In this document: one piece after another, positions 1 to 61,938 of the stretch
Numbering within the stretch: position 1 is the stretch's first letter
How the letters are laid out: every line of letters begins with the position of its first letter
Origin: Chloroflexota bacterium
Lineage (GTDB): Bacteria; Chloroflexota; Limnocylindria; Limnocylindrales; CSP1-4
Length of the DNA: 64,000 nt
Reading direction: 5' to 3'
Assembly (NCBI GenBank): GCA_046045415.1
Contig: JBJOLT010000015.1
Location: 5,988-69,987, forward strand
The notes under the pieces: generated by a model
Told to the model about the DNA's origin: nothing
Databases searched by the model: none
The model's input: only the letters and a program-made list of their open reading frames with translations
Program-made: the position numbers and the translations under genes

Positions 1-892
1 CGAAGAAGAAGGGGGTGAAGATCGCGCGGAGCGGGAGGATCTCGTGCTCCAGCTCCTTCGCGACCTCGGTCTCCGCGATGATCAGGCCGGCGACGAACGC
101 CCCGATGATCGCCGCGAGCCCGACGAAGTCGGCGAAGAGCGCGAGCGCGAGCATGAGGATGAGCGCGGGGACGAGCGGGGTCTCGGCGAACCGGGGGAAG
201 GTGAACGCCTCGCGCGGGAGGCCGCGGACTCGCCGCGCGACGGCGAACCCGAGGCCCACGAGGCCCACCGCGGAGACGGCGACGAGGAGGGTCGCGGCGG
301 AGACGTCCCCCTCCACGGCCCCGGTGAGGAGCCCGATCGCGATCAGCGCGAGGACGTCGTCGATCACGGCCGCCCCGAGGACGACCCGGGCGAACGGGCG
401 CGACAGGACCCCCATCTCCGCGAGGACCCGGCTCGTGATCCCGATGCTCGTGGCCGCGAGCGCGAGGCCGACGAAGGCGGCGCTCCCCGCCTCCTCGCCG
501 ACCGCGAGCGCGATCGCGACGCCCGCGCCGAGCGGGAGGAGCATCCCGATCACGGCGGTCGCCACCGCCGCCCGGCCGACGGCGAGGAGGTCGTCGGTCC
601 GGACCTCGAGCCCCACGGCGAAGAGGAGGATGACGACGCCGATCTCGGAGAAGGTGATCGCCGTCTCGCCCGGGACGACGAGCCCGAGCGCATGGGGACC
701 GACGAGGAAGCCGCCGACGAGCTCGCCGATGACGGCGGGCTGGCCGAGGCGCCGAGCGACCTCCTCGCCGAGCTTCGCCCCGACGAGGAGGATGAAGAGC
801 CCGAGGAGGACGTCGGTGGGCGCGCCGCCCGCCGCCGGCGCGGCGATACCGCCCGGCAGCGGCGGCGCGATGAGCGCGAGCAGCCCGTCCAT
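1..892 (-). CDS. Cation:proton antiporter (CPA2, Kef/NapA-type), N-terminal part. The C-terminus lies beyond the window start.
   Basis: Not in the ORF track because it runs off the window. Hand translation of the minus strand from ATG at 892 gives MDGLLALIAPPLPGG..VLLGLFILLVGAKLGEEVARRLGQPAVIGELVGGFLVGPHALGLV..GAAVIDDVLALIAIGLL. The product is multi-TM and matches the conserved N-terminal signature of the Na+/H+ and K+/H+ exchanger family. A GGGGAGGG Shine-Dalgarno lies about 4 nt upstream. Confidence 0.8.
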   Translation of the reverse strand, partial: MDGLLALIAPPLPGGIAAPAAGGAPTDVLLGLFILLVGAKLGEEVARRLGQPAVIGELVGGFLVGPHALGLVVPGETAITFSEIGVVILLFAVGLEVRTDDLLAVGRAAVATAVIGMLLPLGAGVAIALAVGEEAGSAAFVGLALAATSIGITSRVLAEMGVLSRPFARVVLGAAVIDDVLALIAIGLLTGAVEGDVSAATLLVAVSAVGLVGLGFAVARRVRGLPREAFTFPRFAETPLVPALILMLALALFADFVGLAAIIGAFVAGLIIAETEVAKELEHEILPLRAIFTPFFF

Positions 893-906
893 CGACCCTC
901 CCCGGC

Positions 907-932
907 GCGGGCGCCGGCCGTCCGGCGCCCGC
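907..932 (-). terminator. GC-rich stem-loop between the heliorhodopsin stop and the antiporter start. Possibly a U-tract-less terminator or attenuator.
   Basis: Perfect 11-bp stem GCGGGCGCCGG / CCGGCGCCCGC with a 4-nt loop. It starts 17 nt after the HeR stop (949-951) and is followed by the antiporter SD and ATG. There is no U-tract. Confidence 0.4.
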
Positions 933-948
933 GAGTCTCAGCGGCGGT

Positions 949-1770
949 TCAGCCGCCCGGGCGGAGCGTCCCCGTGAAGACCTGCCACGCGAGGAGGGTC
1001 TTCGCGATGAGGCTCATCGCCATGTACGTCTTCTCGCCGGCGAGGTAGTCCTTCCAGCGGCCCACCTGCTTGTACTGGAGGACCATCGTGATCGCGAAGA
1101 CGTTGAAGGCGAGGAAGAGCGACGCGATGATCGCGTAGACGAACGCCGGGATCTGCGCCTCCTCCGGGAGGTCCGGCTGGACGGAGTACGCGACGACGAG
1201 CCCGAGGATCGCGATCCACGGGATGATCCCGGCGATGCACCCGAAGATGTAGTGCTTCCAGTCGACCTTCTCGCCCTTGGCGAGCCGGCCCTCGTTCGCG
1301 GCCTCCATCGACCAGCCGAAGAGGTTCATCGCGACGTTGCAGCCGGCGATCGCGATGAGCGCCGAGAACTCGTTGATGAACGAGAGGCTGGAGATCGCGA
1401 GGATCATCACCGTCGAGCTGAACGCGTACTCCACCCAGCGGAGCGGGTTCATCCCCCGGGCGAGCCACCCCTCGTAGCGCGAGCGGAGGAACCAGCCGGC
1501 GGTCGCGTGGGCGAGCGCGCTCATCGCGAAGAAGCTCGCGATGAACCAGGCGAGCGGGATGTCGAAGAGGGCGAGCTGGACCTCCTCGAGGCCGGCGAAC
1601 GTGCCGTTCTCGAAGATCGGCTTCGCCGTCGTGATGAACGGCGCGAAGCGCGCCTCGGTCGTGCCGACCGCCACCATGACCACGGCCTGGATGCCGTGGA
1701 GGAGCGTGAGCGCGCGGTTCCACCGCGCGAGGGACCGGCTCCGGCCGGGATCGATCGCAGTCGCCGTCAT
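949..1770 (-). CDS. Heliorhodopsin (7-TM retinal protein, HeR family)
   Basis: The 273-aa ORF starts at ATG. It aligns full-length, from memory, with heliorhodopsin 48C12. Shared blocks are NPLRWVEYAFSSTVMIL (counterion Glu, E114 here), FGCIAGIIPWIAILG, PAFVYAIIASLFLAFN, LQYKQVGRWKDYLAGEKTYMAMSLIAKTLLAWQVFTGTL (Schiff-base Lys K257, codon AAG at 1002..1000), plus His25 and His88. An AAGGAG SD lies 11 nt upstream. Confidence 0.9.
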   Translation of the reverse strand: MTATAIDPGRSRSLARWNRALTLLHGIQAVVMVAVGTTEARFAPFITTAKPIFENGTFAGLEEVQLALFDIPLAWFIASFFAMSALAHATAGWFLRSRYEGWLARGMNPLRWVEYAFSSTVMILAISSLSFINEFSALIAIAGCNVAMNLFGWSMEAANEGRLAKGEKVDWKHYIFGCIAGIIPWIAILGLVVAYSVQPDLPEEAQIPAFVYAIIASLFLAFNVFAITMVLQYKQVGRWKDYLAGEKTYMAMSLIAKTLLAWQVFTGTLRPGG

Positions 1771-1864
1771 CGGTTCGTCGTCTCCTTCGAGCGCAACAAC
1801 ATTCCCGCGGGATGGGCCCGCACCCCTTCCGTTCGGCCGCGTCCTCGGCGCGGATGGCTCCCGG

Positions 1865-2965
1865 TCAGCGTCGGGCGACGTCCGGGTTCGGGAGGACGAT
1901 CTCGCCGACCGTCGCGACGAGGTCGTGGTACGACTTGATGAAGCCGCGGAGCGTCCGCATCGTCGCGCCGTACGAGTCGAACTCGTCGACCGTCATCCCG
2001 TCGGGCTCGTACGCGCGCCGGAAGTCCGGGATCCGCTCCTCGAGCTCCCGCACCGTCGCCGGGTCGACCGGCACCGCCATCCGCTCGACCGGGTCGATCC
2101 CGCTCGCGTTGAAGCGGGCCTGCCACGCGTGCGGCATCGTGAGGATGACGTCGCCGCCGACGAACTCGGTCCAGTGGAGCCGGTGGCGGTACGCGGCGGC
2201 GAGCGCCCGCGTCCGGTAGCCCCGTTCGCGGTAGATCGCGTAGGCCCGCTTGAAGGCGGCGACGCCCGCCCAGTTCGTCGCGTCGGGGTGGACCGCGATC
2301 GCGTCGCGCTCCACGAGGACCTTCATCCAGTCGTCGAGCCGCCCCACCATGAGCGTGCAGACGGGCGTCATCGACGCGACGTCGTGACCCGCCGCCTCGC
2401 GCCGGACGAGGCCGCGCTCCACCGCCTCGGCGACGGCGATCATCTGCGGGACGGTGAACGAGACGGTCGCGTTGACGCTCACCCCGTGGAAGGTCGCCTC
2501 CTCGATCGCGGCGATCCCGGCGCGCGTCGCGGGGAGCTTCACCTGGATGTTCGGCGCGAGCGCGGCGAAGCGGATCGCCTGCTCGAGCATCCGCTCCGGA
2601 TCGACGTAGAAGGTCGGGTTCGTCTGGAGCGAGAGGCGACCCTTGCGCCCCCCCTCTCGCTCGAAGACCGGCCAGAGGATCGCCGCGCCGCGGACGGCCA
2701 TCTCCTCGACGATCGCCCAGGTGAGGACCTCCTCGGTCCACGTCGGGTGCTCGGCGCGGAGGGCGAGGACCCGGTCGGTCCAGTGGGCCCGCTCCTTCTG
2801 CATCACCTCGAGGACGATCGACGGGTTCGAGGTGGCCCCGACGGCGCCCCGCTCGACGGCGTACGCGAGCTCCTCGACCGCGCACGAGTCGTTCCAGTAG
2901 TCGGTGAGGAAGCGGTCGGTCATCCGCTTCAGCGGGCTCTCGGTCGGCAGCATCGTCGTCGTCAT
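1865..2965 (-). CDS. Transaldolase-family class I aldolase/transferase (divergent, 366 aa)
   Basis: Contains ATSNPS, the active-site Lys context NIQVKLPAT, and MVGRLDDW (compare SPFVGRILDW in TalB). ATG start, 22 nt after the iolB stop. Confidence 0.8.
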   Translation of the reverse strand: MTTTMLPTESPLKRMTDRFLTDYWNDSCAVEELAYAVERGAVGATSNPSIVLEVMQKERAHWTDRVLALRAEHPTWTEEVLTWAIVEEMAVRGAAILWPVFEREGGRKGRLSLQTNPTFYVDPERMLEQAIRFAALAPNIQVKLPATRAGIAAIEEATFHGVSVNATVSFTVPQMIAVAEAVERGLVRREAAGHDVASMTPVCTLMVGRLDDWMKVLVERDAIAVHPDATNWAGVAAFKRAYAIYRERGYRTRALAAAYRHRLHWTEFVGGDVILTMPHAWQARFNASGIDPVERMAVPVDPATVRELEERIPDFRRAYEPDGMTVDEFDSYGATMRTLRGFIKSYHDLVATVGEIVLPNPDVARR

Positions 2966-2987
2966 CGTCGCGTCCCCATCGAGCGTC

Positions 2988-3827
2988 TCACGACCGCGGC
3001 GCGGCCGGGTCCCAGTCCATCAGCCAGCGGTGGTCCGGATCCACCGTGAAGTGCCAGGCCCGGTTCGGGCCCGCCATCACGTTCAGGTACCAGCCGTCGT
3101 ACCCGGCCGGTGCGCCGAACGGGTGATAGCCGCGCGGGACGAGGACGAGGTCGAGGTCGCCGACCGCGTAGGACTCGTCGAGCGAACGGTCCGCCGTGTA
3201 GACCCGCTGGAAGCCGAAGGCACCGGGCCGCGCGAACCGATAGAGGTAGAGCTCCTCGAGGAGCGCCTCGGTCGGCGGGTCCTCCGTATCGTGCTTGTGC
3301 GGCGGATAGCTCGACCAGTTCCCGCCCGGCGTGATCACCTCGAACGCGATGAGCCGGCCGGCCTCCATCGCGGGCGACATGAGGTGGTGGACCCGCCGCT
3401 CGGTGACGCCGCTCCCGCGCGTCTCGGCGCGGATCGCGTCGGCGGGGACGACCGCGGTCCGGTGGAGCGGGCCCGCCGGGGCCGAGGCGATCGCGACGAG
3501 CGAGTCGCGGGTCGCGGTCGCGGCGACGCCGACACCGGGTGCGACGAGGACGACCCCCGCGGGCGGGCCGTCGAAGACGGACGTCCGCGTCCCGACGGAC
3601 CCGGCGTCGACCCCGTCGAGCTCGATGCGGGCCGTCCCCTCGAGCACGAGGACGAGCCGCTCCCGGCCGTCCGCGGCAGGGCCGACCGAGCCGACCCGGT
3701 CGCCGTTCCGGAGCCGGTGGAGCTCGAGGCTCGTCCACGTCCAGCCGGCGTTCGACGGGTCGACCGCATGGACGAGCGACCCCGCGCCGGGACGGCGGAG
3801 GAGGGATCGGGCGCCCGCCGCGCTCAG
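2988..3827 (-). CDS. iolB: 5-deoxy-glucuronate isomerase IolB. Start uncertain, probably CTG at 3827.
   Basis: This is the C-terminal part of the over-extended ORF 2988..5462. It contains GGNWSSYPPHKHD, LEELYLYRF, FGFQRVYTADRSLDE, VPRGYHP and YLNVMAGP, matching B. subtilis IolB from memory. There is no in-frame ATG/GTG/TTG near the expected N-terminus (xSLLRRP). Confidence 0.85.
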   Translation of the reverse strand: MSAAGARSLLRRPGAGSLVHAVDPSNAGWTWTSLELHRLRNGDRVGSVGPAADGRERLVLVLEGTARIELDGVDAGSVGTRTSVFDGPPAGVVLVAPGVGVAATATRDSLVAIASAPAGPLHRTAVVPADAIRAETRGSGVTERRVHHLMSPAMEAGRLIAFEVITPGGNWSSYPPHKHDTEDPPTEALLEELYLYRFARPGAFGFQRVYTADRSLDESYAVGDLDLVLVPRGYHPFGAPAGYDGWYLNVMAGPNRAWHFTVDPDHRWLMDWDPAAPRS

Positions 3828-5725
3828 ATGAGCTCCCGACGCTGGGCGGCGAGTCCGCGCTCGTAGCGGTCGCGCGCCTCGCGGACGTTCTTCTGCGTGC
3901 TCGCCTCGGGGACCGGGACGTCCCACCAGCTCTCCTGGCCGGGGACGCGCCCCGCGGGGTCGGTCGGGACGACGACGACGGTCGGCCGGTCGCCGCCCCG
4001 CGCCCGGTCGAGGGCGGCGCGGATCTCGTCGGGTGTCCGCGCGGCGATCGCGACGGCTCCCATCGACTCGGCGTGGGCACGGAAGTCGATCGGGACCCAG
4101 TCGCCGACGAGCCGGTTCCGTGCCGGGTCGCGGAACCGGAGCTCGTTCCCGAAGTCGCGGACGCCCGAGCTCCGGGCGAGGTCCTGGATGCACTGGAACC
4201 CGTGGTTGTCGAGGACGACGATCGTGACGGGAAGCCGCTCGGCGACCGCGGTGACGATCTCGGAGTTCATCATCAGGTACGAGCCGTCGCCGACGATCAC
4301 GACGACCCGCCGGTCCGGCTCGGCGAGCTGGACGCCGAGCCCCGCCGCGATCTCGTAGCCCATGCACGAGTAGCCGTACTCGAGGTGGTACGCCTTCGGG
4401 TCCTCCGGCCGCCAGAGCTTCAGGAGGTCGCCCGGGAGGCTCCCCGCCGCGCAGACGACCGTCGCGTGGCCGCCGACCGCGTCGTTCACGATCCCGATGA
4501 TCTCCGGCTGGGCGAGGAGGCCGCCGTCGGCCGCGGCCGCCCCGCCGCTCCCGTGACGGTACCCGTCGACGCGGGCCTCCCACGTCCGCTTCTCCTCGGC
4601 GACCCGCTCCCGATAGCGGGGATCGGTCCCGGTCCAGCCGGCGGAGCGGAGCGCGGTCGCGAGCGCGACGAGGGCCTCGCGCGCGTCGGCGACGAGCGGC
4701 GTCGCCCGCATCTTCGCCGCGTCCATCCCGCCGATGTTGATCCCGATGAACGAGACGTCCGGATCCTGGAAGGCGGTCCGCGAGGCGGTGACGAAGTCGC
4801 CGAGCCGGCACCCCACCGAGACGACGAGGTCGGCGTCCCGTGCGAGCCGGTTCGCGGCGAGGCCGCCGGCGGACCCGACCGGGCCGACGTTCCACGGGTG
4901 GTCCCACGGGAGCGCGCCCTTCCCGGCCTGGCTCTCGGCGACGGGGATCCCGAAGTCGGTCGCGAGGGCGTCGAGCGCGGCGGACGCCTCGGCGTAGATG
5001 ACGCCGCCGCCGGCGACGACGATCGGCCGCTTCGCCGCCCGGATCCGCTCCACCGCCTCCGCGACGAACGCGGGCTCGGGGAGCGGCCGCCGGATCCGCC
5101 AGACCCGCTTCTCGAGGAACGAGACCGGCCAGTCGTACGCCTCCGCCTGGACGTCCTCCGGGAGGCTGATCGTCACCGCGCCCGTCTCGGCGGGGTCGGT
5201 GAGGATCCGGAACGCCTCGGGGAGGCTCGAGAGGAGCTGTTCCGGGCGGGAGATCCGGTCGAAGTAGCGCGAGACCGGCCGGAAGGCGTCGTTCGCGCTC
5301 ACGTCGCGCTCCACCGGGTGCTCGATCTGCTGGAGGACCGGATCGACGAGCCGGTTCGCGAAGTAGTCGGACGGGAGAAGGAGGACCGGGAGCCGGTTCA
5401 CCGTCGCGGTCGCGGCGCCGGTCACCATGTTCGTCGCCCCGGGCCCGATCGACGAGGTGCACGCGTAGGCGCGGAGCCGGTTCGCGTGCTTCGCGAAGGC
5501 GGTCGCGACGTGGACCTGCCCCTGCTCGTTCTGCGGCCGGTAGTACGGGAGCGCGACCTCGTCGCCGAGCTCCTCGAGCGCCTGGCCGAAGCCGGCGACG
5601 TTGCCGTGGCCGAAGATCCCCCAGACCCCGGCGATGAAGCGCCCCTCGCGTCCGTCCCGCTCGACGTGCTGCGCCGCGAGGTGGCGGACGAGCGCCTGCC
5701 CGACCGTGAGCCGTACCGTCTTCAC
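3824..5725 (-). CDS. iolD: 3D-(3,5/4)-trihydroxycyclohexane-1,2-dione acylhydrolase IolD (ThDP enzyme)
   Basis: 633 aa with a GTG start and an AGGAG SD. The N-terminus VRLTVGQALVRHL..GIFGHGNVAGFGQALEE and the block GSLPGDLLKLW..YHLEYGYSCMGYEIAAGLG..GDGSYLMMNSE match IolD. Confidence 0.9.
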   Translation of the reverse strand: MKTVRLTVGQALVRHLAAQHVERDGREGRFIAGVWGIFGHGNVAGFGQALEELGDEVALPYYRPQNEQGQVHVATAFAKHANRLRAYACTSSIGPGATNMVTGAATATVNRLPVLLLPSDYFANRLVDPVLQQIEHPVERDVSANDAFRPVSRYFDRISRPEQLLSSLPEAFRILTDPAETGAVTISLPEDVQAEAYDWPVSFLEKRVWRIRRPLPEPAFVAEAVERIRAAKRPIVVAGGGVIYAEASAALDALATDFGIPVAESQAGKGALPWDHPWNVGPVGSAGGLAANRLARDADLVVSVGCRLGDFVTASRTAFQDPDVSFIGINIGGMDAAKMRATPLVADAREALVALATALRSAGWTGTDPRYRERVAEEKRTWEARVDGYRHGSGGAAAADGGLLAQPEIIGIVNDAVGGHATVVCAAGSLPGDLLKLWRPEDPKAYHLEYGYSCMGYEIAAGLGVQLAEPDRRVVVIVGDGSYLMMNSEIVTAVAERLPVTIVVLDNHGFQCIQDLARSSGVRDFGNELRFRDPARNRLVGDWVPIDFRAHAESMGAVAIAARTPDEIRAALDRARGGDRPTVVVVPTDPAGRVPGQESWWDVPVPEASTQKNVREARDRYERGLAAQRRELI

Positions 5726-5771
5726 CCGATGCTCCTCTCGCGTCGCGACCCGCCGGGACGGACCGCTCGCG

Positions 5772-6776
5772 TCAGCGGTTCTTCCGCTCGTCGATGATGA
5801 TCGCGGCGACGATGATCACGCCCTTGACGACCTGCTGGTAGAAGGGCGAGACGTTCAGCAGGTCGAGGCCGTTGTTCATCACGCCGATGATCAGCGCTCC
5901 GACGACGGTCCCCCAGACGGTCCCGATCCCGCCCGCGAAGCTCGTCCCGCCGATGACGGCGGCCGCGATCGCGTCGAGTTCGTACCCCATCCCGAGGGCC
6001 GGCGTCGCCGACTCGACCCGGGCGGTGAGGACGACGCCGCCGAGGCCCGCGAGGAGCCCGGAGATCATGTAGATGAAGACCTTCGTCCGCGCGACGTTGA
6101 TCCCGGAGACCCGCGCCGCGGTCTCGTTCCCGCCGATCGCGTAGATGTGGCGGCCGAAGCGCGTGAAGTTCAGCATCACGTGCATGAGGACGACGACCGA
6201 GAGGAAGACGACGATCGGGACGGGGATCCCGAGGAGGTCGCCGCCGCCGATCCAGAGGAAGTCCTCGTTCAGCGTCGAGACCGGCCGCCCGTTCGAGTAG
6301 ATGTACCCGAAGCCGCGGGCCGCCGTCATCATCCCGAGCGTCGCGATGAACGGCGGGATCCTGAAGCCCGCGATGAGGAGGCCGTTCGTCATCCCGAGGA
6401 GGAGTCCGACGCCGAGGCCCGCGAGGACGGCGACGATCCCCGGGAGCTCGAGGCCCGGGTAGAGCGCCTGCTTCCAGCCGGGCTGCTGCACGAGGCTCGC
6501 GGCGACGAGCGCCGAGAAGCCGAGGATCGACCCGAGGGAGAGGTCGATCCCGAGCGTGATGATGCAGAGCATGACGCCGAGCGCGAGCAGGCCGATGACG
6601 GAGATCTGGCGCACGACGTTCAGCAGGTTCTGGCCCTGGACGAACGAGTTGTTCGGGGAGAAGACGGCGAGGATCGTGCACATCCCGAGGAAGATGAAGA
6701 CGATCAGGTACTTCCTCACGAAGCCGCTCGCGGCGGTCCGGTCGAAGCGGCCGGCGGCGGCCGGGGCAGCGGTCAT
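5772..6776 (-). CDS. Sugar ABC transporter permease (RbsC/IatP-like)
   Basis: 334 aa and multi-TM, with the typical AraH/RbsC family pattern (GIDLSLGS, NGRPV, ETAARVSGINV). GGAGGAAGAGG SD. Confidence 0.9.
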   Translation of the reverse strand: MTAAPAAAGRFDRTAASGFVRKYLIVFIFLGMCTILAVFSPNNSFVQGQNLLNVVRQISVIGLLALGVMLCIITLGIDLSLGSILGFSALVAASLVQQPGWKQALYPGLELPGIVAVLAGLGVGLLLGMTNGLLIAGFRIPPFIATLGMMTAARGFGYIYSNGRPVSTLNEDFLWIGGGDLLGIPVPIVVFLSVVVLMHVMLNFTRFGRHIYAIGGNETAARVSGINVARTKVFIYMISGLLAGLGGVVLTARVESATPALGMGYELDAIAAAVIGGTSFAGGIGTVWGTVVGALIIGVMNNGLDLLNVSPFYQQVVKGVIIVAAIIIDERKNR

Positions 6777-6791
6777 CGTCCTCTTCCTCCG

Positions 6792-8291
6792 TCAGGCCGC
6801 CGGGGCGGCGATCGTCGCCGCCTCGAGGACCTTCTCCTGCGTCACGTCCGCGCGGGTGAACTCGGCGGTGATCCGGCCCCCGGCCATCACGAGGACCCGG
6901 TCGCTCATCCCGAGGATCTCGGGGAGCTCCGACGAGACCATGAGGATCGCCTTCCCCTGCTTCGCGAGGCCGGACATGAGGCGGTGGATCTCCGCCTTCG
7001 CGCCGACGTCGATCCCGCGGGTCGGTTCGTCGATCATGAGGATCTCCGGGCCGGTGAGGAGCCAGCGCGAGACGAGCACCTTCTGCTGGTTCCCGCCGGA
7101 GAGGAGCCGGATCAGCTGGGCGAGGCTCGGCGTCTTGATCGCGAGCGCGTCCCGCTCGCGCGCGCACTCGACGTCCATCTGCCGCTTCCGGAGGAAGCCG
7201 CCGGGGCTGAACCGGGCGAGGCTCGCGACCGTCATGTTGTCGCGGACGGGGAGGACCCCCATGATCCCGGTCAGCTTCCGGTCCTCGGTGAGGAGGCCCA
7301 TCCCGGCGGCGATCGCGTCGGCGGGCTGACGGATCCGGATCGGCTTCCCCTCGACGAGGACCTCGCCGCGGTCCACCTTCGTGACGCCGAAGATCGCCTC
7401 GAGGACCTCGGTCCGCCCCGCGCCCATCAGCCCGGCGAGGCCGAGGATCTCGCCCCGGCGGAGGTCGAACGTGATGTCCTCGATGACGCCCTCGCGGGTG
7501 AGGCCGCGGACCGAGAGGACGACCTCGCCGATCGCGGCATGCTCCTTCGGGAAGAGGTGGGTCAGCTCGCGCCCGACCATGAGCGAGATGAGCTTCTGGC
7601 GGTCGAGCTCGCCGGCCTCCTTCGTGGCCACGTGCCGGCCGTCGCGGAAGACGGTGACGCGGTCGGCGATCCGGAAGACCTCGTCCATCTTGTGGGTGAT
7701 GTAGATGACCGCGACGCCGCTCCCGCGGAGCGACCGGATGATCCGGTGGAGGTGGGCGACCTCGCGCTCGCTGATCGCCGAGGTGGGCTCGTCCATGACG
7801 ATGAGCTTCGCGTCGTAGGAGATCGCCTTCGCGATCTCGACCATCTGCGTCTGCGCGACGCTCAGGGTCCGCATGACGGCGCGCGGGTCGATCTCGATCT
7901 CCCAGCGCGCGAAGAGCTCGCGGCTCGCGGCGATCATCCGGCGCCGGTCGACGAGACCGAGGCGGTTGAGCGGCTCCCGCCCGAGGAAGATGTTCTCCGC
8001 GACGATCATCTCGGGGACCGGCGCGAGCTCCTGGTGGATCATCGAGATCCCCAGCCGGAGCGCGGTCGCGCTGTCGGGGATCGCCACGTCCCGACCGTCG
8101 AAGTGGATCGTCCCGGCGTCGGCGTGGTAGATGCCGGCGAGGACCTTCATGAGCGTCGACTTGCCGGCGCCGTTCTCGCCCATGAGCGCATGGACCGTCC
8201 CGCGCTCGACCTCGAGGTGGACGTCGTCGAGCGCCTGGACGCCCGGGAACGCCTTCGAGATGCCCGTCATCCGGAGGAGCGGCTCACCCAT
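6792..8291 (-). CDS. Sugar ABC transporter ATP-binding protein (duplicated ATPase, RbsA/MglA/IatA-like)
   Basis: 499 aa with two ABC cassettes. It has Walker [10 protein letters not shown] and signature LSVAQTQ / LSGGNQQK. Confidence 0.9.
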
Positions 8292-8354
8292 CCCTGCCTC
8301 GCGACCTCAGGCTCGTCACACTGCCGCCGGTCACCGTGAACCGGCCCTGAAACG

Positions 8355-8390
8355 CCGTTCGGAGGCCCGGCGAACCGGGCCTCCGAACGG
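8355..8390 (-). promoter_or_regulatory. Intercistronic 16-bp perfect stem-loop with a UUCG tetraloop, between the binding-protein and ATPase genes
   Basis: CCGTTCGGAGGCCCGG cgaa CCGGGCCTCCGAACGG on the plus strand. On the transcribed minus strand the loop reads UUCG. It lies in the 152-nt spacer downstream of the SBP stop (8444) and upstream of the ATPase ATG (8291). Confidence 0.6.
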
Positions 8391-8443
8391 TACCACTCGC
8401 GGTGTTCGCTTCGACCGCCCCGGAGGGACGGCCTCGCGGGCTC

Positions 8444-9412
8444 CTAGTTGGCGCCCAGGTAGTCCGCGATGTTCGCCGGGGTCACGAGGACATACGGGAT
8501 GTCGACGTAATCCGGCACGGTCTTGCCGTTGATGAGGTCGACGGCCGCCTGGACGCCGCCGCCACCCTGGCCGCTCGCGTCCTGGAAGACGGTGACCTCG
8601 AGCTCGCCCGCCTGCATCGCGGCGAGCGCCTCGGAGGTCGCGTCGACACCGCCGACGAAGACCGTGTCGAGGAGCCCGGCCGCCTTGAGGGCGTTGATCG
8701 CGCCGAGCGCCATCTCGTCGTTGTTCGCGCAGACGACGTCACCGGCCTTGAGGATGCCCGACTGGATCCAGTTCTCGGTGATCGCCTGGCCCTTCGCGCG
8801 GTCCCAGTCGCCGGCCTGCGTCGCGGCGACCTTCATCCCGACCTTCGCCGCAACGTCGTTGCAGCCCTGGGTCCGGAGGACGGCCGCCTCGTTCGAGACC
8901 TGGCCCTGGAGGATGACGATGTCACCCTTGTTGCCGGCGAGCTTCGCGAGCTCCTCCATCTCGACCGTGCCCGCGTAGAGCGAGTCCGAGCCGACATAGG
9001 GGACCCCGGCCTGCGACGGGTTCCGGTTGACGTAGACGAGCGGGATCCCCGCCGCCTTCGCCGCATCGGTCATCGGGCCGGCGGCGCTGGTGTCGACCGG
9101 GACGACGACGATCGCGGAGACCTTCTGCGAGATGAAGTTCTCGACCTGGCTGAGCTGGGTCGCGACGTCATCCTTCGCGTCGGTGATGACGAGCTCGACG
9201 CCGAGCTCCTCCGCCTTCGCCTTCATGCCGTCCTGGACGCGGCTGAGGAACGTGTCGCTGTTCGGGAACGCGGCCCCGATCGTGATGTCGCCGCCGCCGC
9301 TCCCGCCGTCGGCGGGGGCCTCGGACTCGGTCGTGCTCCCGGAGCACGCCGCGACGACGAGCATCGCGGCCATCAGCAGGCTCGCGAGCTTCCCGGTGCG
9401 CTGGAACGCCAT
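8444..9412 (-). CDS. Sugar (inositol/ribose-type) ABC transporter substrate-binding lipoprotein
   Basis: 322 aa. It has a signal peptide with lipobox LVVAAC and a periplasmic-binding-protein type I pattern. AGAGGAGGA SD. Confidence 0.9.
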   Translation of the reverse strand: MAFQRTGKLASLLMAAMLVVAACSGSTTESEAPADGGSGGGDITIGAAFPNSDTFLSRVQDGMKAKAEELGVELVITDAKDDVATQLSQVENFISQKVSAIVVVPVDTSAAGPMTDAAKAAGIPLVYVNRNPSQAGVPYVGSDSLYAGTVEMEELAKLAGNKGDIVILQGQVSNEAAVLRTQGCNDVAAKVGMKVAATQAGDWDRAKGQAITENWIQSGILKAGDVVCANNDEMALGAINALKAAGLLDTVFVGGVDATSEALAAMQAGELEVTVFQDASGQGGGGVQAAVDLINGKTVPDYVDIPYVLVTPANIADYLGAN

Positions 9413-9496
9413 CTACGGATTCCTCCTCTGTCTCACCGATCGGCCGGTCCGTGCCCCGAGGGTCACGCGTCCCGTCGGTCGGTCATCGATTGCCGG

Positions 9497-9526
9497 ACGC
9501 TACCGAGCCGGCATCGCACGCGTCAA
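9497..9526 (-). promoter_or_regulatory. Candidate SigA-type promoter for the ABC/iol operon
   Basis: On the minus strand: TTGACG (9526..9521), an 18-nt spacer, then TAGCGT (9502..9497). It sits in a locally lower-GC 228-nt intergenic region, about 80 nt upstream of the SBP ATG. Confidence 0.35.
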
Positions 9527-9580
9527 GCGATGACGCGCGAGATGGCGACACTTTACGGTCTCCGGGCGCGCTCGTCATCA

Positions 9581-9602
9581 CCGATCCGCGACCGATCCGC
9601 GA
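9581..9602. repeat. Perfect 11-bp tandem direct repeat (CCGATCCGCGA x2) upstream of the candidate promoter
   Basis: Read directly: ccgatccgcga ccgatccgcga at 9581-9591 and 9592-9602. It could be an operator, but no regulator gene was recognised in the window. Confidence 0.5.
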
Positions 9603-9639
9603 CCGCGCCGAGTCCGACGGGCGCCGGGGGACGGGGCCC

Positions 9640-10569
9640 TCAGCGCGCCGGGAGCGGCCGACCGGGACCGAGGCCGATCCCCTCGAAGTAGACCCGGGTC
9701 CGGGTCGCGACGGGGAGCGGAGCGTCGAGCGCGCAGCCGAGCATGTCCTGCTCGACGATGCAGAAGAGGTCGCGGTCGAGCGCGGCGAGGGCGTCGAGGA
9801 CCGGCTCCATCGCCGGCTCCCCCTTCGGCGGCTCGATCATCACGCCGCGGCGGCAGGCCGGAGCGAAGCCCCACTGCTCGGCCTGGGCGCGGTCGCGGAC
9901 CGCCGGGTCCACCTGCTTGAGGTGGACGTACGCGATCCGCTCCGGGAAGTCGCGGATCAGCGCGAGGCTGTCGGCGCGGCCGTAGGCGACGTGGCCGGTG
10001 TCGAGGCAGAGGTTGACGTAGCGCGGGTCGGTCCCGTCGAGGAGGCGGACGATCTCGTCGTGCGTCTCGACATGGCTGTCCGCGTGCGAGTGGTAGACGA
10101 GCTTGAGGCCGTGCTGCTCGAGGAGGTACTTCCCGAGCTCGTCGTGGAGCGCCATCAGGTCGCGCCAGCCGTCGTCGGCGAGCGACCGGTCGATCGCCGG
10201 CTTGCCGTCGAGGTCGGTCGTCCCCTCGGGGAGGATCACGACGTACTCGGCGCCGAGCGGGAGGAGCGTCCGCGCCTCGGCGTCGCACGCCTCCTTCGCC
10301 TCCTGCCAGGCGGCACGCCCCCGCTGGAGCTTCGTCTGGACGGTCCCGCCGGTGAGCGTCAGGCCGCGCCGGCCCAGCTCCTCCTTGAGGCGGACCGGAT
10401 CGCTCGGGTTGTAGCCGTAGGGGCCGAGCTCCGTGTAGCGGTAGCCGGCCTTCGGGACCTCGTCGAGGTACTGCTCCCACGGGACCTGCTCGGGCGTGTA
10501 CGGGAACCAGACGCCCCAGGAGTCCGGGGCCGTCCCGAGGTGGAGCTTCGAGTAGTCGCGCGGGCTCAC
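9640..10569 (-). CDS. iolE: Xylose-isomerase-like TIM-barrel protein, IolE-like inosose dehydratase
   Basis: LGTAPDSWGVW, LVYHSHADSHVETHDEIVRLLDGTDPRYVNLCLDTGHVAY, VHLKQV and CIVEQD parallel B. subtilis IolE. I chose GTG at 10569 because GGAGGAGG lies 5 nt upstream. The ATG at 10617 used by the ORF track has no SD. Confidence 0.8.
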   Translation of the reverse strand: MSPRDYSKLHLGTAPDSWGVWFPYTPEQVPWEQYLDEVPKAGYRYTELGPYGYNPSDPVRLKEELGRRGLTLTGGTVQTKLQRGRAAWQEAKEACDAEARTLLPLGAEYVVILPEGTTDLDGKPAIDRSLADDGWRDLMALHDELGKYLLEQHGLKLVYHSHADSHVETHDEIVRLLDGTDPRYVNLCLDTGHVAYGRADSLALIRDFPERIAYVHLKQVDPAVRDRAQAEQWGFAPACRRGVMIEPPKGEPAMEPVLDALAALDRDLFCIVEQDMLGCALDAPLPVATRTRVYFEGIGLGPGRPLPAR

Positions 10570-10729
10570 GTGGTCCTCCTCCGTGCCGCGCCGGCGCCGC
10601 GTGAGCGCGTGGTCCATCTCGGCAACGGGACGAGACGCTATCGACCGGCCCGGCCCGTGTCAATCGCGGGGGGTCGCGCCGGGTCGGGGACGTCGTGCGG
10701 CCGCGTGGCGCGGGGCGCATCCTCTCGGC

Positions 10730-11707
10730 ATGCGCGCGCTCCCGCCCCCGCCGCTCCCGTCCAGGACCGCGTGGCTCCTCCTCGGCGGCCTCGTCGTCGT
10801 CTGGGGACTCCACTGGCCGATCGTGAAGGCGGTGCTCGGCGAGCTCCCGCCGATGACCTACGCGGCACTCCGGGTCGCGACCGCGATCCCGGCGGTCCTC
10901 CTCGTCCTCGGCGCCCGACGGGAGATCGAGCTCCCGCCGCGCGGCGACCTCCCGGTCCTCATCGTCGTCGGCCTCGGCCAGATCGCGATCGGGACGGCGA
11001 TCATGAACCTCGCCCTCCTCGTCGTCCCGGCGGGCCGCTCGTCGGTGCTCTCGTACACGACCCCGCTCTGGACCGCGCTCCTCGGCGCGGCGCTCCTCGG
11101 CCTCCGGCTCCGCCGGCGCGAGGGGCTCGGGGTCGCCGTCGGGGTCGTCGGGATGGGGCTCCTCTTCGCGGCCGGGCTGGGCGGCGGCGCGGGGACGGCG
11201 GATGCGGGCATGGGCGGGGCGGCGGGCGCCGGATCGGGCGCGGGGGTGGCTGCCGGGTCGTCCGGCCTCGTCGTCGGGAGCCTCGCGCTCGTCGCCGGGG
11301 CCGTCGTGAACGCCGGCGCGGTCCTCATGCTCCGTGCGCACCGGTGGCGGTCCACCCCGCTTCGCCTCCAGCCGTGGCAGCTCGCGATCGGCCTCGTCCC
11401 GCTCGCGATCCTCGCGGCGGTGCTCGAGGACCCGGCGACGATCGACCTCACCCCGACGCTCCTCCTCGCCGTCCTCTACAGCGGACCGCTCGCGACCGCC
11501 TTCGCGTTCTGGGCGTATCAGACGATCGCGCGGACCCTCACGCCGTCGCAGACGACGACCGGCCTCCTCGCCGTCCCGGTCGTCGGGCTCGCCTCGAGCG
11601 CGCTCTTCCTCGGCGAGCCCCTGGGTCCCGGGGACCTGGCGGGCTTCGCGACGACGCTCGCCGGGATCGCGCTCGTCGCGGGTCCGGGCCGCGTTCGCGA
11701 GCCGTGA
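10730..11707 (+). CDS. EamA/DMT-family transporter
   Basis: Two EamA-like 5-TM halves separated by a Gly-rich loop. The start is taken at the internal ATG (MRALPPP), because the upstream part of ORF 10583..11707 is Arg-rich and non-protein-like. Confidence 0.8.
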   Translation: MRALPPPPLPSRTAWLLLGGLVVVWGLHWPIVKAVLGELPPMTYAALRVATAIPAVLLVLGARREIELPPRGDLPVLIVVGLGQIAIGTAIMNLALLVVPAGRSSVLSYTTPLWTALLGAALLGLRLRRREGLGVAVGVVGMGLLFAAGLGGGAGTADAGMGGAAGAGSGAGVAAGSSGLVVGSLALVAGAVVNAGAVLMLRAHRWRSTPLRLQPWQLAIGLVPLAILAAVLEDPATIDLTPTLLLAVLYSGPLATAFAFWAYQTIARTLTPSQTTTGLLAVPVVGLASSALFLGEPLGPGDLAGFATTLAGIALVAGPGRVREP

Positions 11708-14717: not shown

Positions 14718-14794
14718 TGGTCGGGGCGGCCGGATTCGAACCGGCGATCTCGTGCTCCCAAAGCACGCGCGTTGCCAGACTACGCCACGCCCCG
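14718..14794 (-). tRNA. tRNA-Pro (anticodon UGG), with encoded CCA
   Basis: Cloverleaf folded by hand: acceptor CGGGGCG/CGCCCCG, D-stem GCGT/ACGC, anticodon stem CGTGC/GCACG with loop TTTGGGA, T-arm GCCGG-TTCGAAT-CCGGC, discriminator A plus CCA. 77 nt. Confidence 0.9.
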
Positions 14795-25579: not shown

Positions 25580-26973
25580 CACGGCCGTCCGGTCAGACGC
25601 CCGTACTCCTCGACGAGGAGTCCCATCTGGCGTTCCCACGAGTACGGGCCGTGCGCCGCGGCGAGGGCGCGGTCGCGGAGCGCGCGCCGCTCCGCCGGCG
25701 GCGCGTCGAGGATCGCCCGGATCGCCGCCGCGATCGCCGCGGGGTCGGTGGGGTCGACGAGCCGGCCGCAGCCGGTCTCCCGGACGATCGCCGCCATCCC
25801 GGGGAGGTCGCTCGCGACGACCGGGACCCCGGCCGCCATCGCCTCGAAGAGCTTGTTCGGCGTCGTCAGCCGGTGGTTGAGCGTCGAGGGCTGGATCGGC
25901 ATCGCGACGACGTCGGCCGCCGCGACCCAGCCGAGGAGCTCCGCCGGCGGGACCGCGGGGAGGAGCCGGACGCGCCCGGCCGCGGGGCCGGCCGGATCCG
26001 CCGCGATCCGCTCCAGCTCCCCGGCGAGCGGCCCGTACCCGAGGAGGACGAGCACCGCGTCCGGGACCCCGCCGATCGCGGCGACGAGCTGCTCGATCCC
26101 GCGATGCGGCGCCAGCCCGCCCTGGTAGAGGACGACGCGCGTCCCGGCGGCGAGTCCGAGCGCTTCGTGGAAGCGGCGCACGGGCGGGTCGCCGGGGTCG
26201 AAGCGGTACGAGCAGTTCATGACGATCGCCGGGAGCGGGACGCCGAAGCGGTCGGCCATCACCTCCGCGTACGGCCGGTTGACCGTCATCACCCGGTCCG
26301 CGCGGCGGGCCCAGCCGCGCTCGACCCGGCCGAGGAGCCGGCGCGCCGGACCGGGGAGACGCGCGAGGTTGTTCGCATCGACGTAGATGTCGCGCGCGTC
26401 GTAGACGACCCGGCCGCCGCGGGCGGCGGCGACCGCGAGCGCGACCGGGATCCCCATGTACGCCATCCCGTGGACGACGTCGGCCGGTGGGGCGACCGCC
26501 CGGGCGGCACGTGCCTGGGACCGGACGGTGAGCGCGATCGCGGCGATCCGGACGGCGGCCGCCACCGCGCGCCGGAGCCGGCCGCGGGACGCGACGCGGG
26601 ATGGCGCGGCGGCCGCCACGCCCGTCGCCGCGGCGTCCGTCGCCGCCGCGTCCGTCGTCGCCGCGCCCGTCGCCGCGGCGCGTCGCCCGGAGCGCCACCG
26701 GGCGACGGCTCGCCGGATCGGGGCCGGGAGCGGAAGGCCGTCCGCGGCGGAGACGGGAAGACGGACGATCCGGTAGCCGGCCGGATCGCGCGCCTCGGCG
26801 GGGAGGCCCGGCGCGAGCCGCGCGAGGACGGTCACCTCGTGGCCGCGGGCGGCGAGCGCGCTCGCGATCCGGAAGGTCCGTGAGTCGAACTCGCCGGTCG
26901 TCGGGAGGACGATCGTGCAGCGCTGCGGGACCGGCGCGTTCGAGCCGTCCGCCGCGGCGCGTCCCCCGCTCAC
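25576..26973 (-). CDS. Glycosyltransferase, tandem paralog B (GT-B fold) with a low-complexity insert
   Basis: Contains VYDARDIYVDANN and STLNHRLTTPNKLFEAMAAGVPVV. GTG at 26973 overlaps the paralog C stop (GTGA). Confidence 0.8.
   Translation of the reverse strand: MSGGRAAADGSNAPVPQRCTIVLPTTGEFDSRTFRIASALAARGHEVTVLARLAPGLPAEARDPAGYRIVRLPVSAADGLPLPAPIRRAVARWRSGRRAAATGAATTDAAATDAAATGVAAAAPSRVASRGRLRRAVAAAVRIAAIALTVRSQARAARAVAPPADVVHGMAYMGIPVALAVAAARGGRVVYDARDIYVDANNLARLPGPARRLLGRVERGWARRADRVMTVNRPYAEVMADRFGVPLPAIVMNCSYRFDPGDPPVRRFHEALGLAAGTRVVLYQGGLAPHRGIEQLVAAIGGVPDAVLVLLGYGPLAGELERIAADPAGPAAGRVRLLPAVPPAELLGWVAAADVVAMPIQPSTLNHRLTTPNKLFEAMAAGVPVVASDLPGMAAIVRETGCGRLVDPTDPAAIAAAIRAILDAPPAERRALRDRALAAAHGPYSWERQMGLLVEEYGRLTGRPW
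26624..26683. repeat. Imperfect 15-nt tandem repeat (4 units) inside glycosyltransferase paralog B
   Basis: Units are gtcgccgcggcgtcc, gtcgccgccgcgtcc, gtcgtcgccgcgccc and gtcgccgcggcgcgt. They encode the T-(G/D)-A-A-(A/T) pentapeptide tract AATGAATTDAAATDAAATGVAAAA. Confidence 0.6.
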
Positions 26974-61890: not shown

Positions 61891-61908
61891 GCACGCGTGG
61901 TCGAACGG

Positions 61909-61937
61909 CCCGGCGACCGTCCGGTCCGGTCGCCGGG
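61909..61937 (-). terminator. Stem-loop immediately after the VOC-gene stop (10-bp perfect stem, 9-nt loop)
   Basis: CCCGGCGACC gtccggtcc GGTCGCCGGG, starting 1 nt after the stop at 61939-61941. There is no long U-tract. Confidence 0.4.
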
Positions 61938-61938
61938 C

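What the first reader, a model, noticed from the sequence alone, without database searches (positions are those of the whole stretch)
1..1770. Heliorhodopsin-CPA2 antiporter tandem separated by a structured 56-nt spacer
A Kef/NapA-type cation:proton antiporter starts 56 nt downstream of HeR on the same strand. The spacer is almost entirely an 11-bp perfect GC hairpin (907-932) followed directly by the antiporter SD GGGGAGGG. The hairpin has no U-tract, so read-through is plausible. HeRs do not generally pump ions. An adjacent secondary ion exchanger is therefore a candidate effector, for example light-modulated K+/Na+-H+ exchange. The hairpin could set the HeR:antiporter expression ratio.
Basis: inference. 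Interest (0 to 1): 0.6.

Follow-up and report, generated by a model that had tools for sequence, protein, structure and literature searches.

The report
Heliorhodopsin beside a recently juxtaposed antiporter
A light-sensing heliorhodopsin gene really is followed by a strong RNA hairpin and a sodium/proton antiporter gene, but the pairing occurs in only one narrow bacterial lineage and looks like a recent gene juxtaposition, not a conserved light-controlled ion-exchange system.

Summary
All the genes lie on the minus strand. HeR is at 949-1770. A 56-nt spacer follows, containing a perfect 12-bp all-G·C hairpin (906-933, -28.7 kcal/mol, no U-tract) and a Shine-Dalgarno site. A CPA2 antiporter starts at 892 and is cut by the window edge.

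An identical contig gives the full antiporter. It is 408 aa, has no RCK/TrkA domain, and its closest solved homolog is Thermus NapA (E 7e-73, DD motif kept).

- None of 141 HeR loci from relatives (61-79% identity) has the antiporter next to HeR.
- The tandem is seen only in one roughly species-level population (about 95% nucleotide identity).
- Antiporter orthologs (73-75%) sit in a different conserved CBS-CitMHS-CPA2 block.
- The conserved HeR neighbours in this order are a DUF2867/NAD-binding protein, glutamine synthetase, a LitR-like MerR and photolyase.

The hairpin is real and under constraint. Nine spacer differences between two haplotypes all fall outside it. It is one of three ≥12-bp hairpins in the window, all in co-directional spacers. 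HeR genes in the nearest relatives end in their own terminator hairpins. It is most likely HeR's 3'-end element, probably leaky. Ordinary; low interest.

The parts
949..1770 (-). Heliorhodopsin gene (273 aa), apparently intact
   Evidence: Pfam PF18761 at E 1.7e-79 and the NCBIfam HeR equivalog at 255.8 bits. phmmer against 48C12 HeR (6SU3) gives E 2.3e-47. The retinal Lys (SLIAK), the Glu in RWVEY and both His residues align with 48C12.
893..948 (-). 56-nt intercistronic spacer
   Evidence: It has the lowest MFE per nt (-0.648) of the 36 intergenic spacers in the window. Rfam found nothing here.
906..933 (-). Perfect 12-bp all-G·C hairpin with loop ACGG and no U-tract. Most likely the HeR 3'-end element (leaky terminator or mRNA stabiliser).
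   Evidence: -28.7 kcal/mol. It is 100% identical in the two spacer haplotypes, and all 9 spacer differences lie outside it. It is found at no other place in 153 loci.
896..903 (-). Shine-Dalgarno site GGGGAGGG of the antiporter, 2 nt after the hairpin and 3 nt before the ATG
   Evidence: The other haplotype keeps the core as CGGAGGA.
1..892 (-). N-terminal 297 codons of a 408-aa NapA-type CPA2 Na+/H+ antiporter, cut by the window edge
   Evidence: The full gene is at L001:2265-3491 and has only Na_H_Exchanger, with no TrkA_N domain. The best PDB match is T. thermophilus NapA 4BWZ at E 6.6e-73, with the AAVIDDVL motif identical and the TM10 Lys aligned.
1771..1864 (-). 94-nt spacer upstream of HeR. 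It is weakly structured and holds the Shine-Dalgarno site GAAGGAGA. It is a possible but unproven promoter region.
   Evidence: MFE per nt -0.365. The sigma-70 scan found no site.
1865..2965 (-). Transaldolase/FSA-family gene. It is the last gene of a co-directional inositol-catabolism and ABC-transporter cluster upstream of HeR.
8355..8390 (-). Comparator: perfect 16-bp hairpin between the sugar-binding-protein gene and the ATPase gene of an ABC transporter
   Evidence: -35.9 kcal/mol.
61908..61938 (-). Comparator: perfect 12-bp hairpin abutting the stop codon of a glyoxalase-like gene, upstream of pdxS
   Evidence: -28.3 kcal/mol.

Best explanation
This is a recent, lineage-restricted juxtaposition of two ordinary native genes in a very high-GC Chloroflexota (Limnocylindria-type) genome.

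The first gene is a bona fide heliorhodopsin. It is followed by its own 3'-end GC hairpin. HeR genes in the nearest relatives end their transcription unit, several with terminator-type hairpins. In this lineage a NapA-type electrogenic Na+(Li+)/H+ antiporter has come to lie 56 nt downstream. The orthologs of that antiporter elsewhere in the order belong to a CBS-CitMHS-CPA2 block.

The hairpin has no U-tract, and a Shine-Dalgarno site follows it directly. It therefore most likely works as a leaky terminator and/or a 3'-exonuclease barrier. Under that model HeR mRNA is abundant and stable, and the antiporter is made at a lower level from read-through transcripts.

Shown: the gene identities, the anatomy, the lineage restriction, and the sequence constraint on the hairpin. 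Inferred: read-through, the ratio-setting role, and the absence of functional coupling.
For: Identities.

Full antiporter without RCK.

The tandem is present only in contigs about 95% identical in DNA to the window (L001, L002, L083, L084). It is also in L085, but the junction half of L085 is 96-98% identical to the window.

The tandem is absent in every relative examined:
- 80 GTDB species representatives with HeR at 61-74% identity, 76 of which have a called downstream gene.
- 61 metagenome contigs, 45 of which have at least 300 nt downstream.
- The 74% relative.
- The 77% relative, where HeR is followed by its own hairpin; in L155 that hairpin is followed by GCGUUUUCC.

Antiporter orthologs at 73-75% identity lie in a conserved mreD-PBP2-rodA-CBS-CitMHS-CPA2 block in 5 contigs.

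The conserved HeR neighbours in the order are DUF2867/NAD-binding (27 loci), glutamine synthetase (26), MerR+B12 (14) and photolyase (11). These match the published HeR neighbour groups (PMC11109279).

GC3 is 0.98-0.99 for all three genes, so nothing suggests foreign origin.

Hairpin constraint and statistics. 3' hairpins of at least 10 bp are enriched after HeR in relatives, 5 of 79 against 1% in controls. A hairpin of the same kind lies inside an ABC-transporter gene string. In vitro, mycobacterial RNA polymerase does not terminate at hairpins lacking U-tracts (PMC3993855).
Against: There are no transcript data, so read-through, termination efficiency and promoters are all untested. Nothing is known about termination in Limnocylindria.

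HeRs have been shown to regulate proteins encoded in the same operon, including a membrane transporter (PMC11109279, PMC9529153). A lineage-specific new partner therefore cannot be excluded.

The hairpin constraint rests on two haplotypes only, with no compensatory changes.

Distant, non-orthologous CPA2 genes lie 2-10 kb from HeR in 11 of 80 relatives. This could hint at a looser association.
Confidence: 0.72

Rival explanations
1. The two genes form a functional regulatory pair. In this lineage HeR has been recruited as a light-dependent modulator of the NapA-type antiporter through direct membrane protein-protein contact, as reported for HeR with the ABC exporter OmrDE. The two genes are co-transcribed through the U-less hairpin, which tunes their stoichiometry.
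For: The genes are on the same strand, 56 nt apart, with a Shine-Dalgarno site directly after the hairpin and no promoter-like site in the spacer. There is precedent for HeR regulating neighbours encoded in the same operon, including a transporter (PMC11109279; PMC9529153). Three or four non-orthologous CPA2 genes lie within about 7 kb of HeR in other Limnocylindria.
Against: The adjacency is confined to one roughly species-level population and is absent from 141 relatives. Antiporter orthologs have a different conserved context. No antiporter appears among the published recurrent HeR neighbours. The nearby CPA2 paralogs in relatives are not adjacent to HeR. Six of the 11 are on the opposite strand, and they are embedded in a shared synteny block, so they count as few independent events.
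Confidence: 0.12
2. The hairpin is an efficient terminator, either factor-assisted or non-canonical. The antiporter is then an independent transcription unit driven by a promoter inside the 3' end of HeR or in the spacer.
For: The stem is very stable (-28.7 kcal/mol). HeR in the 77% relatives ends with terminator hairpins. The hairpin is under sequence constraint.
Against: There is no U-tract. U-less hairpins did not terminate in the one high-GC system tested in vitro (PMC3993855). Only 13 nt lie between the hairpin and the ATG, and no promoter-like site was found. That scan is weak evidence, because it covers sigma-70 consensus promoters only.
Confidence: 0.12
3. The hairpin is a chance palindrome or a dispersed REP/MITE-like repeat, with no role at this locus.
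For: The genome is 74.5% GC, and the MFE of the 81-nt region is not significantly below its shuffles (z = -1.39).
Against: Perfect stems of at least 12 bp are about 7-fold over expectation, and all three are intergenic. There are zero changes in the 28 hairpin nucleotides against 9 in the 28 flanking ones (my arithmetic: C(28,9)/C(56,9) is about 9e-4). The sequence occurs nowhere else in the window or in 148 other loci.
Confidence: 0.04

Closest known systems
Heliorhodopsin 48C12 / TaHeR (PF18761; PDB 6SU3, 6IS6)
   Same: The match is full-length. The retinal-binding Lys in the SxxxK motif, the Glu counterion in RWVEY and the two conserved His residues all align. The protein passes the NCBIfam equivalog cut-off.
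   Different: The match is remote but full-length (phmmer E about 2e-47). It belongs to the Chloroflexota/Limnocylindria clade, whose closest relatives are about 70-74% identical. No photochemistry has been tested.
Thermus thermophilus NapA (PDB 4BWZ, 5BZ2), an electrogenic CPA2 Na+/H+ antiporter
   Same: The alignment is near full-length at E 6.6e-73. The ion-binding AAVIDDVL motif is identical, the TM10 Lys aligns, and there is no cytoplasmic regulatory domain.
   Different: It has a 27-residue Ala/Pro/Gly-rich N-terminal extension. It scores below the TIGR00932 curated cut-off (168 against 238.3 bits). Its ion specificity is untested.
KefB/KefC glutathione-gated K+ efflux systems
   Same: They share the CPA2 membrane fold (E 3.5e-19 to KefC 8BXG).
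   Different: There is no C-terminal KTN/RCK (TrkA_N) domain. So it is not Kef-type. True Kef/YbaL-like CPA2 proteins with TrkA_N do occur 2-7 kb from HeR in some relatives.
HeR-partner regulatory pairs: AbHeR-glutamine synthetase, TfHeR-photolyase, OcHeR-OmrDE ABC exporter (PMC9529153, PMC9769723, PMC11109279)
   Same: HeR and a candidate partner are encoded on the same strand with a short gap. One published partner is also a membrane transporter.
   Different: The published partner classes recur across many genomes. This pairing is confined to one narrow lineage, and antiporters are not among the ten published neighbour groups. No binding or activity data exist.
Intra-operon stabilising hairpins (E. 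coli malE-malF REP, Rhodobacter puf intercistronic stem-loop), cited from general knowledge
   Same: It is a stable stem-loop between co-directional cistrons, 3' of the gene expected to be the more abundant. The same window shows the classic case after an ABC binding-protein gene.
   Different: It is a single-copy sequence and not a dispersed REP. mRNA decay has not been measured.

Membership tests
Heliorhodopsin (PF18761 / NF038020) | Profile match above the curated cut-off over the full length | tested here: met
   Pfam 267 bits against 26.7. NCBIfam equivalog 255.8 against 100.
Heliorhodopsin (PF18761 / NF038020) | Retinal Schiff-base Lys in TM7 (SxxxK) and Glu counterion in TM3 | tested here: met
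   SLIAK aligns with SLVAK of 48C12. RWVEYA aligns with RWVEYS.
Heliorhodopsin (PF18761 / NF038020) | Inverted topology (N-terminus in the cytoplasm), retinal binding, long photocycle | not testable with these tools
   Needs expression and spectroscopy.
CPA2, NapA-type Na+/H+ antiporter | Na_H_Exchanger fold with the DD ion-binding motif in TM5 and Lys in TM10 | tested here: met
   Pfam PF00999 at 201 bits for the full length. AAVIDDVL is identical to NapA and the Lys aligns.
CPA2, NapA-type Na+/H+ antiporter | Score above the TIGR00932 (CPA2 subfamily) curated cut-off | tested here: not met
   168 bits against a cut-off of 238.3 for the full-length protein. CPA2 is still the best-scoring family.
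CPA2, NapA-type Na+/H+ antiporter | Na+(Li+)/H+ exchange activity | not testable with these tools
   Needs a vesicle assay.
Kef-type K+ efflux (KefB/KefC/YbaL) | C-terminal KTN/RCK (TrkA_N) domain | tested here: not met
   The 408-aa protein has only PF00999. The Kef equivalog scores are far below their cut-offs (98.6 against 752).
Canonical intrinsic terminator | GC-rich hairpin | tested here: met
   12 G·C pairs, -28.7 kcal/mol.
Canonical intrinsic terminator | U-tract of 7-9 nt immediately 3' of the stem | tested here: not met
   The stem is followed by CCGGGGAGGGUCGAUG. The terminator scan did not report it.
HeR-partner regulatory operon | Partner gene adjacent on the same strand with a short gap | tested here: met
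   56 nt, same strand.
HeR-partner regulatory operon | Adjacency recurs across independent lineages | tested here: not met
   0 of 141 relatives. Only one lineage at about 95% ANI carries it.
HeR-partner regulatory operon | Physical binding and light-dependent modulation of the partner | not testable with these tools
   Needs biochemistry.
Intercistronic mRNA-stabilising hairpin | Stable stem-loop between co-directional cistrons, conserved relative to its flanks | tested here: met
   Only two haplotypes were available, and no covariation test was possible.
Intercistronic mRNA-stabilising hairpin | The upstream mRNA segment is more stable or more abundant than the downstream one | not testable with these tools
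   Needs RNA-seq or Northern blots.

The most novel reading that the evidence does not exclude
In this one Limnocylindria lineage, heliorhodopsin has acquired a NapA-type Na+/H+ antiporter as a new light-regulated partner. That would extend the 'regulatory helper rhodopsin' concept to secondary ion exchangers. The conserved U-less hairpin would fix the stoichiometry of the pair. The scattered presence of other CPA2 genes (Kef-like and short types) 2-7 kb from HeR in 10 of 80 related genomes, plus an 11th partial hit at 9.7 kb, would then reflect a broader and looser HeR-cation/proton-exchange link.
Probability: 0.1. Interest if true: 0.6.

Novelty: new member of a known kind. Interest (0 to 1): 0.2.

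Why it matters
The physiological roles of heliorhodopsin are still being worked out, partner by partner. A conserved HeR-antiporter operon would have been a testable lead to light-gated ion homeostasis and a possible optogenetic tool.

The survey shows that this pairing is not such a lead. It is confined to one population. In this order, HeR keeps company with a DUF2867/NAD-binding protein, glutamine synthetase, a LitR-like regulator and photolyase, which agrees with published partner classes.

The useful by-product is modest evidence about intercistronic hairpins. In this 74.5%-GC Chloroflexota genome, perfect U-less GC hairpins mark the 3' ends of genes inside co-directional gene strings, and at least this one is under sequence constraint.

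Tried and rejected
1. RCK/TrkA domain on the antiporter. The full-length gene was recovered (L001) and has none.

2. Dispersed repeat (REP/MITE) reading of the hairpin. The exact 28-mer occurs only at this junction among 153 loci. The perfect-stem scan found it only once in the window.

3. Known RNA family. Rfam gave no relevant hit in 1-3000 at E ≤ 1, and only a tRNA across the whole window.

4. Covariation test of the stem. This is impossible, because the stem is invariant in both available haplotypes.

5. MFE z-score as a significance test. It is uninformative at 74.5% GC (z = -1.39). I replaced it with perfect-stem counts against Markov simulations, plus the genomic location of the stems.

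6. L085 (HeR 86% identical) as independent evidence for a deeper tandem. Rejected. Its HeR is a mosaic: nt 1-411 are 77-83% identical to the window and nt 412-822 are 96-98% identical. Its spacer is identical to L083, and the record is an N-gapped scaffold. The junction therefore belongs to the same lineage, or the scaffold is chimeric.

7. Sigma-70 promoter scan. It found no sites in 1-6000. This is not informative for Chloroflexota.

8. Published neighbourhood surveys. Bulzu 2021 and Kim 2024, including the supplements held for the latter, do not mention antiporters.

9. Foreign origin of either gene. GC3 is 0.98-0.99 for all three genes.

10. My first gene caller merged antisense ORFs. I replaced it with a position-specific GC log-odds caller, which reproduced the reference gene calls.
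Full report
**Observation**

The window is 74.5% G+C. The genes in the finding are on the minus strand.

ORF 949..1770(-) encodes a 273-aa protein. It matches Pfam Heliorhodopsin end to end (E 1.7e-79) and passes the NCBIfam HeR equivalog cut-off (255.8 against 100 bits). Against solved structures it aligns over its full length with 48C12 HeR (6SU3, E 2.3e-47). The Schiff-base Lys (SLIAK), the Glu of RWVEY and both conserved His residues are in register.

The HeR stop codon is at 951-949. The next ATG on the same strand is at 892-890, so the spacer is 56 nt, as reported. The spacer holds a perfect hairpin of 12 G·C pairs, not 11. Its arms are 906-917 and 922-933 and its loop is 4 nt. Alone it folds at -28.7 kcal/mol. 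It is followed by CC, GGGGAGGG, UCG and AUG. There is no U-tract, and the terminator scan does not call it.

The downstream ORF runs off the window start after 297 codons. It is a Na_H_Exchanger/CPA2 protein.

**Is the hairpin more than chance?**

The MFE of the 81-nt region is not exceptional for this composition (z = -1.39). Perfect stems are a better measure. Three stems of at least 12 bp occur in the 64 kb, against a mean of 0.43 (maximum 2) in 30 second-order Markov simulations.

All three lie in spacers between co-directional minus-strand genes. Intergenic DNA is only 7.3% of the window, so my arithmetic gives 0.073^3, about 4e-4. The HeR-antiporter spacer has the lowest MFE per nucleotide of the 36 spacers.

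The 28-mer was found at no other place in 148 other loci or in the window's perfect-stem scan, so it is not a dispersed repeat. Rfam has nothing for it.

**The full antiporter**

A Logan contig (L001, 6,978 bp) carries the identical HeR and the complete downstream gene. That gene is 408 aa and contains Na_H_Exchanger only, with no TrkA_N/RCK domain. A convergent MFS gene follows it, so the antiporter ends the co-directional run.

Its best solved homolog is Thermus thermophilus NapA (4BWZ, E 6.6e-73, near full length). The AAVIDDVL ion-binding motif is identical and the TM10 Lys aligns. KefC is far weaker (E 3.5e-19). The protein is therefore NapA-type and not Kef-type. It scores below the TIGR00932 curated cut-off (168 against 238.3 bits).

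**Is the adjacency conserved?**

The genome collection returned 80 species-representative loci. All are Chloroflexota/Limnocylindria-type MAGs with HeR at 61-74% identity. A tblastn search with the 408-aa antiporter found no homolog adjacent to HeR in any of them. Seventy-six of the 80 have a called downstream gene.

The metagenome collection returned 61 further loci at 61-79% identity. Forty-five of them have at least 300 nt downstream, and none has any antiporter homolog.

The closest relatives were looked up individually:
- The 74% relative has LpqE-like and DUF1684 neighbours.
- The 77% relative (two strain variants) has HeR followed by its own terminator-type hairpin. In L155 that hairpin is followed by GCGUUUUCC. 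No antiporter start lies within 110-117 nt.

The tandem is present only in L001 and L002 (identical to the window) and in L083 and L084 (95.5% DNA identity, HeR 97%). It is also present in L085.

L085 (HeR 86%) is not an independent case. Its HeR is a mosaic: nt 1-411 are 77-83% identical to the window and nt 412-822 are 96-98% identical. Its spacer is identical to that of L083, and the record is an N-gapped scaffold.

The tandem therefore belongs to a single, roughly species-level population.

**Where the two genes normally live**

Many Limnocylindrales MAGs contain antiporter homologs at 69-77% identity. In all five contigs examined, from three proteins, the gene is the last member of a conserved block. 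That block reads gyrB-parB-parA | mreD-PBP2-rodA-CBS-CitMHS/ArsB-CPA2, with gaps of 0-15 nt and no HeR.

I called genes with a position-specific GC log-odds caller, which reproduced the reference calls. I then clustered the neighbours of HeR in the relatives and annotated cluster representatives with Pfam. The recurrent neighbours are:
- a NAD_binding_10+DUF2867 protein in 27 loci, directly adjacent in 24 and almost always on the same strand, sometimes overlapping by 4 nt;
- glutamine synthetase in 26 loci, convergent downstream;
- an SDR in 20 loci;
- fasciclin in 15 loci;
- a MerR+B12-binding (LitR/CarH-like) regulator in 14 loci;
- an APC permease in 14 loci;
- photolyase in 11 loci;
- DUF4397 in 11 loci.

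These agree with the published neighbour groups, which include GS, photolyase, MerR and SDR and contain no antiporter (PMC11109279; PMC8612252). None of these conserved partners is found in the 64-kb window.

In the window, HeR instead sits at the end of a co-directional inositol-catabolism and ABC-transporter string. That string comprises the binding protein, ATPase, permease, IolD-like, IolB-like and transaldolase-family genes, with a xylose-isomerase-like TIM-barrel gene (9640-10617) beyond a 227-nt gap. GC3 is 0.98-0.99 in the transaldolase-family, HeR and antiporter genes, so nothing suggests foreign DNA.

**The hairpin**

The two spacer haplotypes differ at 9 of 56 positions. All nine differences lie outside the 28-nt hairpin. 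My arithmetic gives C(28,9)/C(56,9), about 9e-4. The spacer flanks are more diverged (16%) than the adjoining coding DNA. The Shine-Dalgarno core is kept (GGGGAGGG against CGGAGGA). The stem is therefore under constraint, although no compensatory change exists to prove pairing.

Hairpins of at least 10 bp within 90 nt after the HeR stop are enriched in the relatives, at 5 of 79 against 1% in random controls. They occur mostly before convergent genes. The 77% relatives have terminator hairpins. This fits the hairpin being HeR's own 3'-end element.

Two lines of argument bear on read-through:
- A hairpin of the same style (16 bp, 4-nt loop, followed only by GUUUC) lies between the binding-protein gene and the ATPase gene of the ABC transporter in this window. 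That is the classic position of an intra-operon stabiliser that still allows expression of the downstream genes. The comparison with malE-malF is from general knowledge.
- In the one high-GC system tested in vitro, RNA polymerase did not terminate at U-less hairpins (PMC3993855).

I therefore infer leaky termination and/or 3'-exonuclease protection, with lower expression of the antiporter from read-through transcripts. This step is inferred and not shown.

**Verdict**

The anatomy is real. The hairpin is a genuine, constrained 3'-end element.

The proposal that the antiporter is the HeR effector has no comparative support. The pairing is a recent, population-restricted juxtaposition of a HeR with a NapA-type antiporter whose orthologs belong elsewhere. 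A lineage-specific interaction cannot be excluded, because HeRs do regulate proteins encoded in the same operon, including a transporter (PMC11109279, PMC9529153). I rate that at about 0.1.

One loose end remains. Non-orthologous CPA2 genes lie 2-10 kb from HeR in 11 of the 80 relatives:
- Kef/YbaL-like proteins with TrkA_N lie upstream on the opposite strand in six loci.
- A short 387-391-aa type lies downstream in four loci.
- One further Kef/YbaL-like gene with TrkA_N lies 4.1 kb downstream on the opposite strand in L070.
- In addition, a partial hit lies 9.7 kb away in L078.

These sit inside a shared synteny block, so they represent few independent events. I could not compute a genome-wide background.

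Noticed in passing
window 8355-8390 (-): A perfect 16-bp GC hairpin (-35.9 kcal/mol, followed only by GUUUC). It lies between the periplasmic sugar-binding-protein gene (8444-9412) and the ABC ATPase gene (6792-8291). This is the classic position of an intra-operon mRNA-stabilising or attenuating hairpin.
   Followed up: partly
window 61908-61938 (-): A perfect 12-bp hairpin that starts immediately after the stop codon of a glyoxalase-like gene (61939-62727). It lies 124 nt upstream of pdxS (60899-61783) and has no U-tract.
   Followed up: partly
window 1865-10617 (-): A co-directional myo-inositol-catabolism-like cluster leads into HeR. It comprises a xylose-isomerase-like TIM barrel, the ABC transporter (binding protein, ATPase, permease), an IolD-like TPP enzyme, IolB/KduI and a transaldolase/FSA-family gene. 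L083 and L084 share the IolB-TAL-HeR order.
   Followed up: partly
L085:261-1082: The HeR in this scaffold is a mosaic. The 5' half is 77-83% identical in DNA to the window and the 3' half is 96-98% identical. The upstream gene is different, and the spacer is identical to L083. This is either recombination inside HeR or a chimeric metagenome scaffold (it contains N gaps).
   Followed up: partly
L003-L082 (HeR at about 10001-10810 in the long loci): The conserved HeR neighbourhood in Limnocylindria-type genomes includes a NAD_binding_10+DUF2867 protein directly adjacent on the same strand (24 loci, sometimes overlapping by 4 nt). It also includes convergent glutamine synthetase (26 loci), a LitR/CarH-like MerR+B12 regulator (14), photolyase (11), fasciclin (15) and DUF4397 (11). 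The DUF2867 protein looks like the best candidate partner for HeR in this order.
   Followed up: partly
L011, L019, L024, L027, L038, L058 (upstream, opposite strand); L010, L043, L059, L063 (downstream, same strand); L070 (downstream, opposite strand): Non-orthologous CPA2 genes lie 2-7 kb from HeR in 11 of 80 relatives. They are Kef/YbaL-like proteins with TrkA_N (about 570-610 aa) and a short 387-391-aa type. They sit inside a shared synteny block. The apparent enrichment could not be tested against a genome-wide background.
   Followed up: partly
L088-L092 (antiporter at 8001-9260): Orthologs of the antiporter form a tight, conserved CBS-domain protein / CitMHS-ArsB-family transporter / CPA2 trio. 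The gaps are 0-15 nt. The trio follows mreD-PBP2-rodA and lies near parAB-gyrB, so it is probably close to the replication origin.
   Followed up: no
window 26467-26969: A 503-nt apparently non-coding gap between co-directional genes, with strong predicted structure (-0.61 kcal/mol per nt). No Rfam family matches it.
   Followed up: no
window 14718-14794 (-): The only RNA gene detected in the window is tRNA-Pro (TGG).
   Followed up: yes
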